DNA of 64,000 nt. Origin: the human T2T-CHM13v2.0 reference genome, Homo sapiens. Of the stretch, positions 16,492 through 27,033 are shown piece by piece. The position numbers and the translations under genes are program-made. The DNA lies in NCBI RefSeq assembly GCF_009914755.1, contig NC_060927.1, one strand, 5' to 3'. How positions within the stretch are numbered: the first letter of the stretch is position 1; every line of letters begins with the position of its first letter. A model generated the notes under the pieces. The model had not been told where the DNA came from, did not search any database, and saw only the letters and a list, made by a program, of their open reading frames with translations.

Positions 16492-17670
16492 CAGATGACC
16501 CTTGAACAACATGGAACTAAATTGTGTAGGTCCACTTATATGTGGGTTTTTAAAATAAATATATTGGAAAATGTTTTGAAGATTTGGAATGGTTTGAAAA
16601 AACTCACAGGCGAACCAAGTAGCCTAGAAATATTGAAAAAATTAAGAAAAAGGCATGTCATGAATGCATAAAATGTATGTAGACACTAGTCTATTTTGTC
16701 ATTTACTACCCTAAAATATGCACAAATCTATTATAAAAAGGTAAAATTTATCAAAACTTATGCACACAGACACTTAAGAAACTACATGGTGCTATTTGCA
16801 GTCAAGAGATGTAAAAAAACATAACGAAGAAGTATTAAATTGTAACTACGTAAAATTAACTGTAATATATACTATACAAATGTAATAATTTTGTAGCTAC
16901 CTCCTGTTGCTTTTGCAGTGAGCTCAGGCGTTGTGATTATCTCCTTAAAACACTGTGTGATAATCATGGCCATGTGAGCAGTTCTTCCCTTCAGGAAAAA
17001 GTGATCTTGAAGTTCTTGTGTATTTTTCATCATGTTTAGTGCAATTTCATAAGCTTTGGATAACAACAAAGGACACATTTAGCATGCCACTACCTGATGC
17101 TGGAAGTACTTTCAAGAAGCAGAGAAAAGTCATGACATTACAAAGAAAAAGTTGAATTGCTTGATGTGTACTGTAGAATGTGGTGTGCAGCTGTGGTTGC
17201 CCACTATTTCAAGATAAATGAATCCAGTGTAAGGACCATTAGATATGTATATATAAAGGAAATTTATGATGTTGTAGCTACAGCTATGCCAACAGGTGCA
17301 AAAACCATGTACTTTTTGCAAAATCTCTTATAATGAAAGCATAGTTTTTATGTGGGTGCAGAATTGTTATAAGAAAGGCATACCTGTAGACTCTAATATG
17401 ATTCAAGAAAAAACAAAGTCATTCCACAGAGTGAGCAGAGAGTGGTGAAAAGTCTCGGAGAGAAAAAAAAATCATTATATGGCAACTTAAAAGGTGAAAG
17501 ATCTAAAGCTGGATAATTTAATGCCAGCAAAGGATGGTTTGGTAATTTTTGAAAGAGGTTTGGCATAAAAAAGAAAAAGTCAAGATAACAGGGGAAGCAT
17601 CTTTTGCTGACCAAGATGCAGCAGACAAGTTCCCAGATGTCATTAAGAAAATCATTAAGAAGAAAGGGGG
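16492..17670 (+). mobile_element. Tigger2 (pogo-like DNA transposon), left part
   Basis: TIR CAGATGACCCTTGAACAAC; decayed transposase pieces (e.g. KITGEASFADQDAADKFPDVIKKII). Confidence 0.88.
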
Positions 17671-18214
17671 TTTTTGGTTTCTTTTTTATTGTTTTTGTAT
17701 TTGTTTGTTTTGTTTTTTTGCAGTAAAGAAAGTTTAATTGATATGAGGCCACTGTGGCATGTGGCAGATGGAGTTATTACTCAAATCAATCTCCGAAAAT
17801 TTGCAGGGTAGGGATTTTCAAGGATAGTTTGGCAGGCGGTGGGGCTAGGGTATGGGAGCTGCTGATTGATTGGGGATGCAGTCATAGGGGTGTAGAAAAT
17901 GGTCCATGTGTGAAGACGGAGAGTCCAAGTGGGGCATCAGTCATTAGAAATACAAAAGCCTGAAAAAACATCTCAAAAGGCCAATTGTAGGTTCTACAAT
18001 AGTGATGTTAATTACAGGAATAATTAGGGAAGTTGCAAATCCATTGGAATAATGGCTCCTAGTCATTTACACCTACATATTAGCAGAATGCAGACCCCTC
18101 TAATTCTCTTAACCTTTTGGCTTTTATTAGTTTTACAAAGATGGCTTAGTTTAAGGGATATTATTTAAACTATAAAGTTCTCCCAAAGTTAGATTGGCCC
18201 ATACCCAGAAATTG

Positions 18215-18567
18215 TGTATTAGTTTGTTCTCATGCTGTTAATAAAGACATACCTGAGACTGGGTAATTTATAAAGGAAAGAGGTTTAATTGGCTCACAGT
18301 TCCACATGGCTGGGGAGGCCTCACAATCATGGCTGAAGAACAAGGGATGTCTTACATGATGGCAGGCAACACAGAACTTGTGCAGGGGCGCTCCTCTTTA
18401 TAAAACCATCAGATCTTGTGAGACTTATTCACTATCATGAGAAGAGCATGATAAAGGTTCACCCTCATGATTCAATTATCTCCCACCAGGTCCCCCTCAC
18501 GATGTGGGAATTGTGAGAGCTACAATTCAAGATGAGATTTGGGTGGGGGCACAGCCAAACCATATCA
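18215..18567 (-). mobile_element. THE1-type MaLR solo LTR nested in the LTR8 U3
   Basis: TGTATTAGT..AATAAAGACATACCTGAGACTGGGTAATTTATAAAGG..CACAGCCAAACCATATCA. Confidence 0.9.
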
Positions 18568-21500
18568 AATGACCAAGGGCAGTTTGGAGGTTAAAGGCAA
18601 GACTGAATTTGGTTAGGTCAGAATTTTCTCACTGTTACAATTTTTGCAAAGACAGTTTTAATCCCCCTCCTTTGGGTTTCATCATACCTTATTTTTAATC
18701 TGTGTGTTATGGAAATGGAAAAAGGCCTACAGCCACTGTAACTTCTTCCTGCTCACAGGGGCAGATTTGGAGTGGGAGTTGCCCTCAGGGTAAGAGGAGT
18801 GAAACTGTCTTGTAATTGTTGGTATGTATTCATGTGTGCCAGGTTGAGATCCCAAGGTCTGCATAAGAAAACATTGGTGCTCTTATCCACAGCTTTCACA
18901 CAGCACTTAAGTGAACAGGTGGACTATAAGACAAATAATGAGCCCCAACATAAGGAGAGAAAGTCCTCACTTCAGGAATCCCTGTAGAACTGACCTGAAG
19001 CCTTAAGGGATACAGGTGAATGACCCCAAGAATCAATCAGATATGGGGTCATTAGCAGAGACTCAAACATAGTGGATAAGGCTGGAATCTAATAACAGTT
19101 GTACTATAGTTTTTTTCTGAAACAATTTTTCTCTCTCCAGTTCCCCATTTCTACCAAACACAAATCATAGTAGGACCAATTTATTTGCAAAATAAGTTCC
19201 AGTCCCATTATATTTGGCCTGGTTATTTGCATAAAATGCAGCAAGAATAGTTATTTGCCAAATAGGTTCTTTTTCTAAAAATAATTGGCTTTGCTGGAAT
19301 TTATTTCATAAGGAATCTCAGATTAGACCTTTTAAAAGTCTCTAGCCCAGCCAAGGATTCATCTGTGCCTGCACATACCTGTATGAATTGGGTGAATTTC
19401 TCTCTTCTTGAGGTCCCACAATAACTTGGGATTCCTGGGTCTGTCAGAAAGTGACATTCTTTATTTACTACGGGTTAGGAGCCCTGTAAAGGACAAGGTA
19501 TGAGACCAGTATTTCCAAGGGGCTGTTATCAGCTCTGTAAGTCAACCTCAGTTACTCAAAGCAGCCTGAAACCATGCCATTTCCAGTCAAAGCCTTGGTA
19601 AAATAATCAGTGTCTCCAGTTGTGTCCTGTTGCAAAAAACAAAGCAAAACAAAAAACATTCTTATTGAACTTATGCAAAAAACTATATTGCCATATGCTA
19701 AGAAGACTCATAATTAGTTTCAAAATTCTGGAGAAATCACGTAGAGAGAAAGAAATATGCTCCAAAGTTTGCAGATAGAAATATGCTTCATTCAATTGTT
19801 AAAAGCTATAAACAGCTCAAAAGGAAAGTTGTTATGTGTTTTGACCCTGAAAAACAAAAAGGATCAGAAACATTTCAAACAAATAGTCATAGAAAGATTA
19901 TTTCATTATTCTCTTAGTTCAGTCCATACAGTTAATTCCTGTTCTGTTTGATATTCATGAACACTTCAGCTCTTCCTGAGAGTCCTAGAAGTTTCTCCCT
20001 CTATATTAATGGCACAATCTTTAAAGATATCAGAAATCTGCATTCAAGAGCACCTGTTAGAGTTCCATAGCTGATTATAAAATCACCTTTTGAAAAGGAT
20101 CAAAGTAAAAATAACTGTGGATGACAAGAGGCTTAAACAGCTATGGTTTAAGACTCAATTAACAAGGAAATTTGGTTATTTTTGTGGCATACAATTTAAT
20201 ATAACAATTATTATTACTGATAACATACACTAAGTCATATTGAAATTATAGGAATCTTGCACAATTCTGGAACACATACCAATAACACTTTCATATAAAT
20301 ACAGCCCAAAGAAAGCCAAATACCAATTCATACTTGACAGTGCTCACTCTATGATGTCAACATGCCAAATAAGCCAGATGTCTCTTTTGGACTTCAGGGG
20401 ACCTAATATTGAAAAAATTAATGAAATCAAAAGGACTGAATTTAGAACTTGAAATTTTGATTTTGGAAGGTTTGTCAAATATCAAAGGTTTAGAATACTT
20501 ACTGTTATAAAATAGTATCATTGGTTATTCATTTAGCAGAAGTGATAACTCAAAAATTTCAAAAGGCAAAAACCTAAACAGCATACCCAATAAAGGTAGC
20601 ATGTGGCTACCTGAATCTCTCTTTCCCCTTTTTTCCTTTTTTTTTTTTTGCAGTTTACTTAAAAGGCAAAAACATTTCATTGTGGCTCAGTATTACAAAA
20701 AAACTTTGTTCAAAAGAGGAAAACCAAATTTTACCTTTTTATTAATGTACTATTAATGTTAGGCCCAATTTTTTAATAAAACCTTATAAACAAATCTATA
20801 CAGTCTTAATCAGTTTGACCATAAGGTAAGATTTTCCTAAACATCCCCCCATAACTTTTTATAATTTATTACAGGGCAGACCCCCATAACTTTTTATAAT
20901 TTATTAAAGAGCAGATCAATGTTCTAAGAAAACCATTATTCTGACACATGGGTCCAGATTCTGGCCTTGTAACAGTGTGCTTTTTATTTTAATGTTTTAA
21001 TTTATAGAAAAACTAAATAATCCCGTTCAACTTTTGGCTACATTGCTCACACCCACAGAGCTTCCTTTACAAGATCAATGTATTATAAATCTTTTACAAC
21101 TTGCTTAAACCTTCAGTATTGTCATATCTTTTTGGGACAATCCTCAAAAATCTCCAAACTCAACGTGATTACTTTCCTTTGAACAAAAGCCATATTTCCA
21201 AGACAAAAACACATTCTACTTCCTTTATATAACTTGTATATAAACTTTCTCTAGTAGTCTCAATGTTAATATGTTAACTCTTAGTCACTTTTATTTCTGG
21301 TTAGGAACCTGGTAAGTAAGTAATTTTAACCATGTATCAGATTGCAGAGCCTAGGACAAGAACAGAGCTTTAGACAGTGTCTGACTCTTCCTAGCCTAGT
21401 CAGAGGACAGGGCTAACTCCATATGTCCCCAGATCTTACCTAAAATCTAATGACTGAAGAATAGACAAGTCAATTTTCAAAAATATCATAGAAGTAGTTT

Positions 21501-22590
21501 ATAACCTTAAAACGTATAGCAAAGACAGAATTCAGTCTGCCTACTGTAGACCAAATGTCTAAATTTTGAAGATGTTTTTATTTTACCAATAATCTTTAAA
21601 ACTATACTTAACAAAGATTTCTAAAGTCATCTACACTAAAAGGCATTAAATTTTCTATTTTTCTGACAAAATATTTTATTTTAGGGCTCATTCTTCCCTA
21701 AACCAGTTAATTAGAGTTCTTTATGTAAACATCCCACACACAACACATATAATTACATGGAAGGAAATGGATCTGGTAGTTGTAAGATTTTTTTGTTTGC
21801 CAGTTTTTAAGTTTCTATTTCCTATTTTAGACTATCAGTTTCTTGATTACCTATTCCCTGCCCTAAACAATTGTCAGCTAGGCAACTCTAAATTTGCATT
21901 TCTAAAGGGACAGCTCCTAGGTGAAACAGGATAGAGAACTTATATTTTAAAAGCACAGAGCTGAGACATTAAGCCAAAACATTGTATGATAATAGTTTCT
22001 AATATACACAGGCAGGCACCCTTACCAATGGGGGTTTTCTTAAATATGTAAATTTCTAAATTGGATTTGTGGCTTCAGGGTGGAGCCCTTCAAGGAACAG
22101 GGCCAAGAAAGCGTGCAGCTTCCAGGGCCTGACAGGCAGAGCTGTAAGATAGAACAGATCCCCAAAAATCAAGGGCTCCGTTTTTACGCCTAATCCTGGG
22201 TCCCCCAAAAGAGAAACGCTATAGGACGAGATAGTGATTTTATGGTGTATCTCATTGCAAGGACATTTTTCACTGAGGCTACTGGGCAACCCAAAGCCAA
22301 TCAGCTCAATCTGTAATCAGTCCATTCCCCAATCCATACTTTCCGGGTCCCCAAGAACATGGTTTTCTTATTCGGTGTGCAAAGAACCAAGTATCACCCT
22401 GTAGTAACTCAATTGTAAGCATCTGCCATTAGCCATCCCTAAGAGTATATCTCTTACCTAGCTATTACACACCAAGGCTAAAAGTTCTCTCGTAAAGCCT
22501 CTCTCATAAAGCGATTCCTTCCTCCCTTCCTTCCTTCCTTCCTTCCTCGCTCCCTCCCTCTCTCCCTCCCCCCAAGTCTTGCTCTGTCTC

Positions 22591-22903
<313 letters not shown>

Positions 22904-25714
22904 AAAGCAAAGTAATTTCTGATATCCTCAAAAGTTAAAAAGGTCGGATAATGTAATGCAAAACAGAGCAGAGTCATAAATTTTGAGAAGGATTTGTTTA
23001 CTTACAATTTTGTGGGTTTCATGAGGAAAACAGGTTTTTCCCTAAATGGGGCCCGTGGTACCTCCTCTGTTTCTCCTAAGGAATCCCAGGCTGGCAAAAA
23101 GAAGTAAATGGAGAAACAATTCAGCCAACCAAGAAGAAAAAAAAAGCTTTTTCTCAAAAAAAACAAGATCCAAGAAGAGAAAAGGCATAAAGACCTTTAA
23201 AATATATGTATAGTGTAAATATCAACTTTTAGTTAAGCCAACTTTTAACCATAGAGCTTCGTTAAAGAAATCCTTTTAAATCTTTTATTACTATACTCTA
23301 GCCAGGACAAACAGCCTCTGGCTTTTAAGCTTTTTTCCCCCTCAAAGGTCTCCTCCTAAGTGAAACCAGTAAGTCTTATCTAAGATTATGACTTATCGAT
23401 GGATGCATGAGGTGTCTCCAAAGAGACAGCAAGCATTTTTACAATATGTAGAATAGCCCCTGAGGTAGCTCAGAGAAAAGAAAATTCAAGACAGGAAATC
23501 AGAAGCTGTCCATGGAGAAGAAAAGAATCAATAAATGGCAAAAGTCCCACAAGTATCCAACCAGAAAGGACTCATTCCCAAAGCCAGCAATTGAGCCCAG
23601 ACTGCTACTATAAAAGGGTAGTCTTAGCTACTGAGCTACAGCATGGGGCAGCTGCCATTAGTCTTCCAGGAAGGAGTCTGGGGCAGTCATTTTCAAGCTT
23701 GTAAAGGATTGTAACTGCTCAAGAGAATTTTCTGAAGCTAGTTAGGACATTATTCATCCTTTTTAAAAACTTTAATTATGGAGAATAAAAGATTTCTAAA
23801 ATTCCTTTTAAAAAAAATGGTATACTCAGTTTCAGTAGTGACTTAATCTGAGTCTTTTACAAGCCCAGATGTTAATGTTCCAGGATTTTATCATATAAGC
23901 AAGAGGTATTCTTAGAGAGGGGATAGAGGAGATATCTCCATCGTCCCCAAGAATTCACTCTCTGTAATGGGCTTAAGATAACAAAAGATGACAAGAGCCC
24001 TGTAGAAATGGGATCTTTTAAGACAAGACTCACCCAAAGGCATGACACATTTGGGATGAAGAGTGTGCTGACTCATCTCAGACACCCGGTCCTCTCATAC
24101 TGACATGAACTGAAAAATTCCTGCCCTTTGGATGGTGGAGACTGAGAGTGTACCTCCACATGGTCAACAGAGTCAAGCTCCCAAGGACGTAAAACAAGAT
24201 GAGAAGGAAATCTCGTCCAGTTTTTGTTTCAGGGACCTGCAGCAAAGTTTGTAACTGACCAGCCCACAGGGCCAGCTTGAGCATTGGGCTTATAGGGATC
24301 CTAGGCCCTTGTTCTATCCTACGGTGCCCCTCTCCATGACAGAAGACACATAAAGATAAAAACTGAGAGGAAAGGAGTGAAACAATGTGAATATTCATAG
24401 CACAAAGTGCACTAGATTTGCTACAGCCTCAGACTAATCACACAAATCCTTTTTCCCATTAATCAGACTTTGCAAAGGAGACAGTGATTTTTACCATCAG
24501 TTTGCGCAGAAAGAGGCCAGAAGCCTGGCTGGTAGGAAATTCTTACCCTTTTGCCGGCATGCTAGCTTTCCAGGTTCCTTATCTCTCAGCAGCTTTGGTG
24601 ATGCTGCTTGCTGTACCATAGCTGTGGGGGCCATGCTGCATTACAAAAGAAAATCATCTCTTTCTGTTTCATGGAATCATAGTCAAAAACCTCATTTTGC
24701 AAGATGTAGCCAGGCTACATGGGGGAACCAAAATGACGTTTTTTATTCCAGGCAGAGGAAAATACACATGACAAAACACAGACACCAGTCACCCCGCTTA
24801 GCATCCAAGTATTGACCTGGCAAGGCTTAAACTTGCCTCTGTTGGCCCGTGTTGTCTTTGATCCACTCAAAGTGGGGTGGGGTGTTCTCCAACCAGGAGT
24901 TTCAACAGGTGATCTTTAAGCAACATGGAAGAGTGGATAGTCACCCTGAGTTAGACCTGTTGAACTTTGTTCATGGCTCACAGAATGTGACCAACCAGAC
25001 AAACTAGTACAGTCTCCTGGACTTTCATCAGCAATTCTTTCAGGGAATTCTCTCCATATATACAAATACGCACAATGAGATAAAGACAAACAAAAAGGCC
25101 TTCCAAACCAGGATTCCTAACCAAAAATTTCCAGGAGTAATTCTTCTGAACTAACCTCTTATTCTCTAACTGGGGAGACATCTCCCCAAACCCAGAGTCT
25201 TCCTACTATTTTGGGAGAGCCAGCTAATACCCCCAAAGGAGCCAAACCAAGACACTTGAAGGAGCAGAACCAAGAACCCCAGTGGAGCCAAACCAACTGG
25301 GAGAAGGAAGAAGGTTCTGACTGTGCTTAGAATACTCAGCAGACCAGTTTAAAGATGTCTTTCTAGGAAGGATGTCTTTCTCCACTGCAATTAGGCCCAA
25401 GCACTGTGGGTCAGCAGGGCCTCACTGGGCAAGGACAGCACCAGACATGGCCTTCAGTTCCAGAGAAATAAGCAGCTGCCAGAGCTCACCTCCAATTCCA
25501 ACATACTGGTGGGGGGCTGACAAACTGCAGGCAGGCACCCACAAAGGCAGATCCCAGACAGACCCCCAAACTTATAATAGCCCGATGGGTTCTTCCTCCC
25601 ACACAGATGAAATCAAGCCACTGAGACCAAGCCATTGCAGTAGAGAAAGAGTTTAATGGAAACGAGGATGGCCATGCCACAGAGGAGATGGAGTTATTAC
25701 TCAAATCAATCTCC

Positions 25715-27033
25715 TAAACAGGTTTTTAACACAAACAAAAGTGCCCTATTCTGGAAAAAAAAAGGACACAAAATGCATTAGTAAGGAGGAGACGTGAGCA
25801 CCAGGATTTAAGGAAGGAAGGGATAGGCCAAATCTGTTGTTTTGTGCAAATGTAGTCAGGTTTATGATCAGGACTGCCCTTATCTATAAAACTGCTAATC
25901 TCTAGCCTTGATGGGAAAAGATAAACATCAGGTGTTAGTCTTTTGGTTGTACAACACAAAGGCTTGGACAAGGAGATTGCTTTTTCTAGACTGAGTCCAT
26001 CAATGCTTTGTCTCTGAAGTCAGGAAGTACCTCAACAGTAGTCTATGGAAAGGACTGTCAATGCTATGGAAGAGAACCCTGACAGAACATTACCAAAACC
26101 TTGAAAGATTACACCATTGAAGATGCCATCATTCTTATAGAAAAAGCTGTGAAAGTCATCAGGCCTGGAACAAGAAATTCCTTCTAGAGAAAACTGTCCA
26201 GACGTTGTGCATGACTTCAAAGGATTTACAATGGAGCCAATAAAGGAAATTATAAAAGAGATTGTGGATATGGCAAAAAAGGTCAGAGGGTGAAGGGTTT
26301 CAAGATACTAATCTTGGAGAAATTCAGGAGCTAACAGACATCACACAAGAGGAATTAGCAGAGGACAACTTGGAGATGATTTTTTTTTCTGAATCAGTGC
26401 AGACAATGAGAAAGAAGACATAGTAGAGGCAGTGCTAGAAAACAAATTGATGCTAGATAATATGGCAGAAGGGTTTCAATTATTCGAGACTGCTTCTCAC
26501 TTCTTTTACAACATGAACCTTCCTATGATATGGGCGCTGAAACTAAAGCAAACGTTGGAAGAAGGATTGGCACTATATAGAAACATTTTTAGAGAAATGA
26601 AAAAGCAAAAAAGTTCGACAGAAGTTATGACATATTTCCTCAAAGTTACTCCAAGCGTGCCTGTCTTTTTTGCCTCCCCTTCCACTTTCTCCACCTGTGT
26701 CATCCCTGAGACAGCAACACCAACCCCTCCTCTTCCTCTTCCTCCTCAGCCTGCTCAATGTGAACATGAGGATGAAGACATTTTTGATGATCCACTTAAT
26801 GAAGATTAAATATATTTCCTCTTTCTTATGATGATTTTCTTAACATTTTCTTTTCTCTAGCTTACTTTATAAAATATGCATTAATTGAATGTTTATATTA
26901 TCAGCAAGGCTTCCTGTCAACAGTAGGCTATTAGTAGTTAAGTTTTTGGGGAGTCAGAAGTTGTACATGGATTTTCAACTATGTGGAGGGGAGGTTCACA
27001 CCCCTAATGTCCATGTTGTTCAAAGGTCAACTA
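25715..27033 (+). mobile_element. Tigger2, right part
   Basis: Transposase sequence resumes (AACAGGTTTTTAA..GTGCCCTATTCTGG); ORF 26432-26809 is a C-terminal remnant; right TIR GTTGTTCAAAGGTCAAC followed by TA. Confidence 0.88.

What the first reader, a model, noticed from the sequence alone, without database searches (positions are those of the whole stretch)
17669..25729. Full-length LTR8/MER4-type retroviral RNA apparently inserted by L1 machinery (processed ERV retrocopy)
Seen in the sequence: on the minus strand the element starts abruptly at 25714 in R (GGAGATTGATTTGAG...). In the other LTR copy this position lies ~25 nt past a TATA-like TTGAAAA. It continues through U5 (ends ~25573), a tRNA-Pro-like PBS (TGGGGGTCTGTCTGGGAT), ~7 kb of internal sequence, a PPT, U3 (from 18660) and R. 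It stops ~13 nt after an ATTAAA signal (17738-17733) and runs into a ~49-nt degenerate poly(A). The 5' LTR lacks U3 and the 3' LTR lacks U5. A 29-nt R block is identical at both ends (17766-17794 and 25686-25714). The right flank reads CAGGTTTTT|AA, a canonical L1 endonuclease site, and GGTTTTT recurs on the left flank. Established: this R-to-R plus poly(A) layout is the signature of L1-mediated processed ERV copies, well known for HERV-W. Inference: this is such an event in a non-autonomous MER4-group family, where I do not know it to be well described. Caveats: the left TSD is only partial, and the two R copies diverge in their middle.
Basis: partly seen in the sequence, partly recalled or inferred. 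Interest (0 to 1): 0.8.

Follow-up and report, generated by a model that had tools for sequence, protein, structure and literature searches.

The report
L1-made retrocopy of a non-coding ERV
This 8-kb stretch is a dead, non-coding endogenous retrovirus that was copied into the genome from its RNA by the LINE-1 machinery instead of by retroviral integration, a known route that here turns up repeatedly in a family for which I found no published account.

Summary
On the minus strand the element runs R (25714-25636), U5, a PBS (25568-25551), about 6.9 kb of internal sequence, a PPT, U3, R (17794-17719), then a 43-nt tail that is 77% A. Full LTRs elsewhere in the genome carry U3-R-U5 without a break. 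The insert sits inside an interspersed repeat: six of six paralogues read straight across the site and lack the A tract. The 5' flank gives a canonical TT|AAAA LINE-1 (L1) nick site 14 nt upstream of R. Only 7 nt of the expected target-site duplication survive on the 3' side.

The interpretation, an L1-made processed ERV retrocopy, is supported. It is also recurrent. Seven of 18 classifiable 3' ends that carry this internal sequence stop at the same R position and continue into poly(A). A second full-length R-to-R copy and one 5'-truncated copy have clear duplications; two further truncated copies have weaker ones. In contrast, 0 of 39 LTR-selected copies end in poly(A).

No Pfam domain was found in the internal region. 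The LTR8/MER4 name could not be tested. L1-copied ERVs are known for HERV-W, HERV-H and one HML-2 locus, so this is a new member of a known kind and of moderate interest.

The parts
25715..25727 (-). 5' copy of the target-site duplication (AAAAACCTGTTTA, possibly plus the G at 25714). It is preceded by TT at 25729-25728, which gives a TT|AAAA L1 endonuclease site.
   Evidence: Sequence. The flanking repeat's paralogues L078 and L079 read AAAAACC.GTTTAGGCAGATAT across this point.
25636..25714 (-). 5' R (79 nt). The element starts here and there is no U3 upstream.
   Evidence: The upstream flank aligns to the host repeat's paralogues to within 0-2 nt of 25715.
25569..25635 (-). U5
   Evidence: It aligns to the U5 of seven full LTR copies.
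25551..25568 (-). Primer-binding site TGGGGGTCTGTCTGGGAT. Its likeness to a tRNA-Pro site is recalled, not tested.
18674..25550 (-). Internal region with no recognisable gag, pol or env. It is colinear with the internal parts of other copies and carries a later Alu at about 22903-22593.
   Evidence: No credible Pfam family, and none retroviral, in 75 ORF pieces (two chance-level hits below cut-off) and none in three X-read frames. Colinearity. Alu.
18662..18673 (-). Polypurine tract AAAGGAGGGGGA
17795..18660 (-). U3 of the 3' LTR. It is interrupted by a 355-nt secondary insertion at 18567-18213; the THE1/MaLR-like name for that insertion is recalled.
   Evidence: Other copies join the two U3 halves without the insert. 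Coordinates.
17719..17794 (-). 3' R (76 nt) with ATTAAA at 17738-17733. It ends in CA and there is no U5.
17676..17718 (-). Degenerate poly(A) tail (43 nt, 77% A)
   Evidence: It is absent from six of six paralogous empty sites.
17669..17675 (-). Remnant (AAAAACC) of the 3' copy of the target-site duplication
16900..17668 (+). Host repeat into which the element inserted. It continues at 25728-25960. It is a pogo/Tigger-like DNA transposon fossil.
   Evidence: 449 first-look candidates at about 80-83% identity. Weak HTH_Tnp_Tc5 hits in two + strand frames, E 4.5e-4 and 2.4e-3, both below the curated cut-off.

Best explanation
The element is a processed retrocopy. A full-length, unspliced, polyadenylated transcript of a non-coding class-I (ERV1-type) endogenous retrovirus was reverse-transcribed at a nicked target by the LINE-1 machinery (target-primed reverse transcription).

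The transcript started at the U3/R border of the source's 5' LTR. It was cleaved and polyadenylated at the R/U5 border of the 3' LTR. The copy went into a Tigger-like DNA transposon in what is now LEKR1 intron 2, antisense to the gene. It therefore has no promoter (U3) at its 5' end.

Shown here: the R-to-R-plus-tail anatomy, the clean insertion into a continuous repeat, the TT|AAAA site, and recurrence of the same ends elsewhere.

Inferred: that L1 was the enzyme; that the 3' duplication later lost about 14-15 nt; and the age, tens of millions of years.
For: **Ends**
- The 5' end lies at the R start and the 3' end at the R end. Full LTRs elsewhere are U3-R-U5.
- In a sample of 39 LTR copies, 37 run from the same CA straight into U5. 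The focal stop is therefore the R/U5 border.
- The TATA-like box starts 27 nt upstream of the R start. ATTAAA lies 14 nt upstream of the tail.

**Insertion site**
- Six of six paralogues of the flanking repeat are continuous across the site and have no A tract.
- The 5' flank ends in AAAAACCTGTTTA preceded by TT. AAAAACC recurs right after the tail.

**Recurrence**
- Of 24 distinct loci picked by the 3' internal sequence, 7 end in R plus poly(A), 11 keep U5 and 6 are unclear.
- C7:86.75M is a second full-length R-to-R copy with a tail and a duplication of about 19 nt.
- CX:76.89M is 5'-truncated with a 16/18 duplication.
- C8:131.63M and C7:125.79M are 5'-truncated with shorter duplications that start with AAAA.

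**Contrast with proviral copies**
- The proviral copy at C3:40.57M has two full LTRs and a 4-bp AATA duplication.
Against: - **Focal duplication is weak.** Only 7 nt match. A score test gave 7 for the focal pair, against a mean of 6.85 and a maximum of 13 for mismatched pairs. Relative to the paralogues, about 14-15 nt are missing on the 3' side, so a later deletion or an untidy insertion has to be assumed.
- **Only some duplications are convincing.** Two of five duplications clearly beat the controls and a third scores 9. None was found for C12:68.92M.
- **Rare among LTR copies overall.** In the LTR-selected sample, 0 of 39 copies end in poly(A), so processed copies are rare among all LTR-bearing loci.
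- **One early candidate failed.** CX:54.50M first looked like an R-start copy. It has an L1 tail abutting its 5' LTR and keeps U5 at its 3' end, so it is not processed.
- **No orthologous empty site could be examined.**
Confidence: 0.88

Rival explanations
1. It is an ordinary provirus, integrated by retroviral integrase. It later lost U3 from its 5' LTR and U5 from its 3' LTR through two separate deletions, with an unrelated A-rich tract lying next to it.
For: Old elements do collect deletions. One look-alike, CX:54.50M, owes its U3-less 5' end to an L1 insertion. The focal duplication is weak.
Against: - Both breaks fall on the U3/R and R/U5 borders.
- The host repeat resumes within a few bases on each side, and the A tract is absent from six of six paralogues.
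- There is no 4-bp duplication of the kind seen at the proviral copy C3:40.57M.
- The same two breakpoints recur at independent loci.
Confidence: 0.03
2. It is a processed RNA copy, but it was not made by a standard endonuclease-dependent L1 event. It could be an endonuclease-independent insertion at a DNA break, or an event with a small target deletion and no true duplication.
For: Read against the paralogues, the 3' flank resumes about 7 nt beyond the 5' junction point, with only AAAAACC in between. That pattern also fits a small target-site deletion in which the AAAAACC belongs to the tail.
Against: - A canonical TT|AAAA lies 14 nt upstream of the 5' junction, and the same 7-mer follows the tail.
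- Other copies of the family have ordinary 12-19-nt duplications that begin with AAAA.
Confidence: 0.07
3. The copy was made by a retroviral or other non-L1 reverse transcriptase that primed on the poly(A) tail. It was then joined to the genome without integrase.
For: Nothing here identifies the enzyme directly. The family also spread as normal proviruses, so a retroviral enzyme supplied in trans was available.
Against: The AAAA-initiated duplications, the TT|AAAA-type sites and the frequent 5' truncation are the established marks of L1 target-primed reverse transcription. Retroviral replication primes from the PBS and rebuilds full LTRs.
Confidence: 0.02

Closest known systems
HERV-W processed pseudogenes (Pavlicek et al. 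2002; Grandi et al. 2016, PMC5016936, passages read)
   Same: The layout is R-U5 at the 5' end, U3-R at the 3' end, a poly(A) tail, L1-type target sites and frequent 5' truncation. Processed copies coexist with normal proviruses and solo LTRs of the same family.
   Different: - This is a different family, with no recognisable gag, pol or env, and an older one: LTR-LTR identity in proviral copies is 77-79%.
- I found far fewer processed copies, about ten.
- They are rare among all LTR-bearing loci (0 of 39).
Single L1-made HERV-K(HML-2) retrocopy at 2q32.1, and spliced HERV-H retrocopies (Schmitt et al. 2013, PMC3590776, passages read; Goodchild et al. 1995, seen only as a citation)
   Same: These are ERV transcripts outside HERV-W that were copied by L1, with a short tail and a duplication of about 13 nt.
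   Different: Those are betaretrovirus-like or HERV-H elements, reported as isolated or spliced copies. Here the copy is the unspliced full-length RNA of a non-coding family, and the event recurs.
SVA elements (SINE-R part) - recalled
   Same: A retroviral 3' end (env-U3-R) that stops at the LTR poly(A) site is spread by L1 in trans.
   Different: SVA is a composite element that became an L1-dependent family in its own right, with thousands of copies. Nothing here suggests that processed copies were themselves sources.
LTR8 / HUERS-P1 and MER4-int as listed in Repbase (Kojima 2018, PMC5753468, table passages read)
   Same: - LTR length: about 655 nt here without the insert, against 691 bp quoted for LTR8 in PMC6862598.
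- A Pro-type PBS (recalled).
- Old age.
- An LTR8-MER4I junction is recorded inside the Harlequin recombinant.
   Different: Membership was not testable because no repeat library was at hand. The published LTR8 primer matches the R of a related LTR subfamily in my loci, not the focal LTR itself.

Membership tests
L1-mediated processed ERV retrocopy (HERV-W type) | The 5' LTR lacks U3 and starts at the transcription start (R). | tested here: met
   Alignments to seven full LTRs begin at 25714 or within 10 nt of it. The host repeat aligns to within 0-2 nt of 25715.
L1-mediated processed ERV retrocopy (HERV-W type) | The 3' LTR lacks U5 and ends at the poly(A) site downstream of the signal. | tested here: met
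   R ends at CA 17719, 14 nt after ATTAAA. 37 of 39 other LTRs continue from that CA into U5.
L1-mediated processed ERV retrocopy (HERV-W type) | A poly(A) tail belongs to the insert. | tested here: met
   A 43-nt tail, 77% A, absent from six of six paralogous empty sites.
L1-mediated processed ERV retrocopy (HERV-W type) | A target-site duplication of about 7-20 bp. | tested here: inconclusive
   Only AAAAACC is shared. About 14-15 nt of the expected 3' copy and adjacent flank are missing. The focal score is no better than the mismatched controls.
L1-mediated processed ERV retrocopy (HERV-W type) | An L1 endonuclease-type site (TT|AAAA) at the start of the duplication. | tested here: met
   GTGTT|AAAAACC at 25729-25721. 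The same motif is present in the paralogues.
L1-mediated processed ERV retrocopy (HERV-W type) | The copy is colinear with the genomic RNA (PBS, internal region, PPT). | tested here: met
Integrase-made provirus | Two complete U3-R-U5 LTRs and a 4-bp duplication. | tested here: not met
   Neither LTR is complete. The family's proviral mode is seen at C3:40.57M, with full LTRs and an AATA duplication.
LTR8 / LTR8A / LTR8B (Repbase, Dfam) | The LTR aligns to the family consensus. | not testable with these tools
   No repeat library was available. Indirect support only: the LTR length fits, and a published LTR8 primer matches a sister LTR subfamily in 13 places at 3-5 mismatches, where about 1 is expected by my own estimate (PMC6862598).
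MER4-int versus HUERS-P1-int | The internal region aligns to one of the two consensus sequences. | not testable with these tools
   No library was available. Kojima 2018 pairs LTR8 with HUERS-P1 and MER4I with the MER4 LTRs, but records LTR8-MER4I inside Harlequin.
Non-autonomous ERV | No recognisable gag, pro, pol or env. | tested here: met
   No retroviral Pfam family at E up to 0.1: two chance-level, non-retroviral hits below cut-off among 75 ORF pieces, and none in three frames read with X at stops. Heavy decay could hide remnants.
tRNA-Pro-primed ERV1 | The PBS is complementary to the 3' end of tRNA-Pro. | not tested
   The likeness, 14 of 18 to the MLV-type Pro PBS, is recalled and was not compared with a tRNA gene here.

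The most novel reading that the evidence does not exclude
This old, non-coding LTR8-like ERV1 family is a further human ERV family that L1 copied repeatedly, not just once. I found about ten independent processed copies, and they make up roughly 40% of the classifiable copies that still carry the 3' internal region. The same RNA therefore spread by two routes: retroviral enzymes supplied in trans, and L1. [quoted passage not shown] The shared ends of the processed copies also mark the family's transcription start and poly(A) site to the nucleotide.
Probability: 0.55. Interest if true: 0.55.

Novelty: new member of a known kind. Interest (0 to 1): 0.45.

Why it matters
**For annotation.** The locus is a promoterless retrocopy, not a provirus. 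LTR-based dating, LTR promoter predictions and counts of "full-length proviruses" should not be applied to it.

**For ERV biology.** Two reviews describe HERV-W as the sole HERV group mobilised by L1 (PMC5537654) or the only family commonly copied by LINEs (PMC3758188). A second family with repeated L1 copying, and a non-coding one at that, would show this route is less exceptional. It would also give a natural set of RNA-end markers (transcription start and poly(A) site) for an old LTR family.

**Limits.** L1 is known to copy any polyadenylated RNA, so a single such copy is not surprising.

Tried and rejected
- **Pfam, internal region.** Neither 75 ORF pieces nor three X-read frames gave a retroviral domain. 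One search failed because of stop codons.
- **Pfam, flanks.** The minus-strand flanks gave nothing. The + strand left flank gave weak Tc5-type hits.
- **CX:54.50M (L011/L069).** I first counted it as a processed copy and then dropped it. Its 3' LTR keeps U5, and an L1 tail abuts its 5' LTR.
- **Weak candidates.** C6:68.56M (L018) and C10:81.82M (L021) stay unclear or only probable. C11:25.28M (L034) has an R-start 5' end, but its 3' end was not reached.
- **Missing 5' ends.** The 5' ends of three R-plus-poly(A) copies (C6:93.41M, C8:80.73M, C8:8.21M) were not found.
- **No duplication for C12:68.92M**.
- **Duplication score test.** It separated two pairs clearly and one modestly from the controls, out of five pairs.
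- **LTR-selected sample.** It gave 0 of 39 poly(A) ends.
- **Similarity to the focal copy.** Processed copies are 72-87% identical to it and proviral copies 74-81%, so nothing points to one special source lineage. No tree was built.
- **Sources I could not use.** Pavlicek 2002 is not held, so I do not know whether it mentions other families.
- **Literature searches.** Five searches found no account of processed LTR8 / MER4 / HUERS-P1 copies.
Full report
**What is there**

Read on the minus strand, the element begins at 25714 with GGAGATTGATTTGAG. Its parts, with coordinates fixed by exact matching, are:

| Part | Coordinates | Note |
|---|---|---|
| 5' R | 25714-25636 | 79 nt |
| U5 | 25635-25569 | |
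| PBS | 25568-25551 | TGGGGGTCTGTCTGGGAT |
| Internal region | 25550-18674 | about 6.9 kb |
| PPT | 18673-18662 | |
| U3 | about 18660-17795 | carries a secondary insert |
| 3' R | 17794-17719 | 76 nt |
| Tail | 17718-17676 | 43 nt, 77% A |

The first 29 nt of the two R copies are identical. The middle of R differs by scattered changes and short indels. ATTAAA lies at 17738-17733, and R ends in CA 14 nt later. The small corrections are that U5 ends near 25569 and that the tail proper is 43 nt.

**Are the ends the U3/R and R/U5 borders?**

A search of the window's own genome with R-U5 found many LTR copies (566 first-look candidates, 40 scored). I aligned seven of them, each with flanks, to both focal LTRs. 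The 3' LTR aligns up to its R end. The 5' LTR aligns from 25714 on (four of seven start exactly there, the others within 10 nt) and runs about 65 nt further into U5. Full LTRs are therefore U3-R-U5; the focal 5' LTR lacks U3 and the 3' LTR lacks U5.

In a second sample, chosen by the last 116 nt of U3 plus R, 37 of 39 copies continue from the same CA into a conserved U5. The other two are interrupted by other repeats. A TATA-like box (TTGAAAA here, TATAAAA in some copies) starts 27 nt upstream of the R start.

**The insertion site**

The 246 nt upstream of 25714 belong to an interspersed repeat (449 first-look candidates, about 80-83% identity). I fetched 141 nt across the matching point from six paralogues. 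All six are continuous there and none has an A tract.

Two of them (L078, L079) read AAAAACC.GTTTAGGCAGATAT followed by the sequence that forms the focal 3' flank. The focal 5' flank ends in GTGTT|AAAAACCTGTTTA(G). That is a canonical L1 nick site (TT|AAAA) 14 nt upstream of R.

After the tail the focal 3' flank reads AAAAACC and then jumps to CCCTTTCTTCTTAATG. The first 7 nt of the expected duplication are there, but about 14-15 nt (the rest of the duplication plus about 7 nt of flank) are missing.

A simple local-alignment score gave 7 for the focal flank pair. Mismatched flank pairs gave a mean of 6.85 and a maximum of 13. So the focal duplication has no statistical weight of its own; its support is positional. 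The left flank carries weak Tc5-type transposase hits on the + strand (E 4.5e-4 and 2.4e-3, below the cut-off).

**The internal region**

None of 75 stop-to-stop pieces of 30 aa or more matched a retroviral Pfam family; two pieces gave chance-level, unrelated hits (E 0.018 and 0.07, below cut-off). None of the three frames read with X at stops matched any Pfam family at E up to 0.1. The region is a repeat in its own right:
- The leader next to the PBS gave 33 first-look candidates.
- The last 440 nt before U3 gave 67.
- Other copies are colinear with the focal one.

Two later insertions are present. One is an Alu at about 22903-22593, in the element's orientation. The other is a 355-nt LTR-like insert in U3 (18567-18213) that other copies lack; its THE1/MaLR name is recalled. 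The element is thus a full-length, unspliced copy of a non-coding family.

**Recurrence: 3' ends**

The 29 loci returned for the 3' internal query reduce to 24 distinct ones. One pair overlaps, and I took five chr15 loci to be duplicates because of their matching hit geometry. At the R end:

| Class | Count | Loci |
|---|---|---|
| Stop at the same position and run into poly(A) | 7 | C6:93.41M, CX:76.89M, C7:125.79M, C12:68.92M, C8:131.63M, C8:80.73M, C8:8.21M |
| Keep U5 | 11 | |
| Could not be classified | 6 | |

**Recurrence: 5' ends**

Among 16 distinct loci that carry the PBS-proximal leader:
- 11 have U3.
- 2 start at R with unrelated sequence upstream (C7:86.75M, C11:25.28M).
- 1 probably does (C10:81.82M).
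- 2 abut L1 fragments.

**Other copies in detail**
- **C7:86.75M:** a second full-length copy, with R at both ends, a degenerate tail and a duplication of about 19 nt (score 11).
- **CX:76.89M:** 5'-truncated, with a 16/18 duplication (score 14).
- **C8:131.63M and C7:125.79M:** 5'-truncated, with shorter duplications that start with AAAA (scores 9 and 8; the latter is not above the controls).
- **C12:68.92M:** no duplication found.
- **CX:54.50M:** first looked like an R-start copy, but it keeps U5 at its 3' end and has an L1 tail against its 5' LTR. I dropped it.

**The proviral mode**

Copies at C13:39.52M, C3:40.57M and C2:36.63M have two full LTRs that are 77-79% identical. The C3 copy has a 4-bp AATA duplication. 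Those values point to an age of tens of millions of years; I did not compute a distance-based age.

**How common are processed copies?**

About ten independent loci show processed ends. They are a large share of the copies that keep the 3' internal part (7 of 18 classifiable). They are rare among all LTR-bearing loci (0 of 39), most of which are presumably solo LTRs. Their identity to the focal copy (72-87%) overlaps that of the proviral copies (74-81%). Nothing therefore points to one special source.

**Mechanism**

The anatomy is that of a polyadenylated genomic RNA, copied from its tail at a TT|AAAA nick and often incompletely. This is the established signature of L1 target-primed reverse transcription. 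The enzyme itself is inferred. The main open point at the focal locus is the decayed 3' duplication. A small target rearrangement or an endonuclease-independent event remains possible (about 7%). Two independent deletions in a provirus are very unlikely, given the exact borders, the tail, the clean host repeat and the recurrence.

**What is known**
- Grandi and Tramontano 2017 (abstract read) call HERV-W the sole HERV group specifically mobilised by L1.
- Magiorkinis et al. [quoted passage not shown]
- Schmitt et al. 2013 (passages read) report one HML-2 L1 retrocopy and cite earlier HERV-H and HERV-W cases.
- Vargiu et al. 2016 (passages read) did not separate processed copies from proviruses.
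- Kojima 2018 (table passages read) pairs LTR8 with HUERS-P1 and MER4I with the MER4 LTRs, and records an LTR8-MER4I junction in Harlequin.

Five full-text searches found nothing on processed LTR8, MER4 or HUERS-P1 copies. Pavlicek 2002 is not held, so I could not check whether it lists other families.

The family name stays a lead. The LTR length fits the 691 bp quoted for LTR8 (PMC6862598). That paper's LTR8 primer matches the R of a sister LTR subfamily in 13 places at 3-5 mismatches. Neither point is a test.

**Verdict**

It is a new member of a known kind, with a family-level pattern worth a proper census. Interest is moderate.

Noticed in passing
window 18213-18567 (minus strand): A 355-nt LTR-like insert sits inside the U3 of the 3' LTR. 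Other copies of the family lack it. It looks like a THE1/MaLR solo LTR, but that name is recalled. NCBI masks 18211-18452.
   Followed up: partly
window about 22515-22903 (minus strand): An Alu in the element's own orientation has a long pure poly(A), followed by a GA-rich simple repeat. Alus in other copies sit at other positions, so this one is a later insertion.
   Followed up: partly
window about 19075-20575: A 1.5-kb block of the internal region is shared with many more loci than the rest of the element. About 21 of the 40 scored loci match mainly this block. The whole 3.84-kb query drew 3613 first-look candidates. This suggests a module shared with a more abundant related family.
   Followed up: no
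window 16900-17668 and 25728-25960: The host repeat of the insertion is a common interspersed repeat. Its + strand carries weak Tc5-type transposase DNA-binding hits, which suggests a pogo/Tigger-like DNA transposon fossil in LEKR1 intron 2.
   Followed up: partly
L069 (G000:C23:54491700-54501650): A mosaic copy. Its 5' R-U5 is of the focal LTR type and abuts the tail of an L1. Its 3' LTR is of a sister subfamily (R contains AATAAAACTCC) and keeps U5.
   Followed up: partly
L055, L056, L059, L062, L066 (G000:C15:21.7-22.25M): Five copies with near-identical hit geometry lie within 0.55 Mb on chr15. They are probably one insertion spread by segmental duplication.
   Followed up: no
L015 (C23:91.04M) and L016 (C24:5.39M): An X/Y pair of the same proviral copy, with identical hit coordinates.
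   Followed up: no
L063/L068 (G000:C8:8.209-8.213M): The end of the internal region plus the start of U3 occurs twice, about 1.2 kb apart, ahead of an R-plus-poly(A) end. This is an internal duplication or a nested copy.
   Followed up: no
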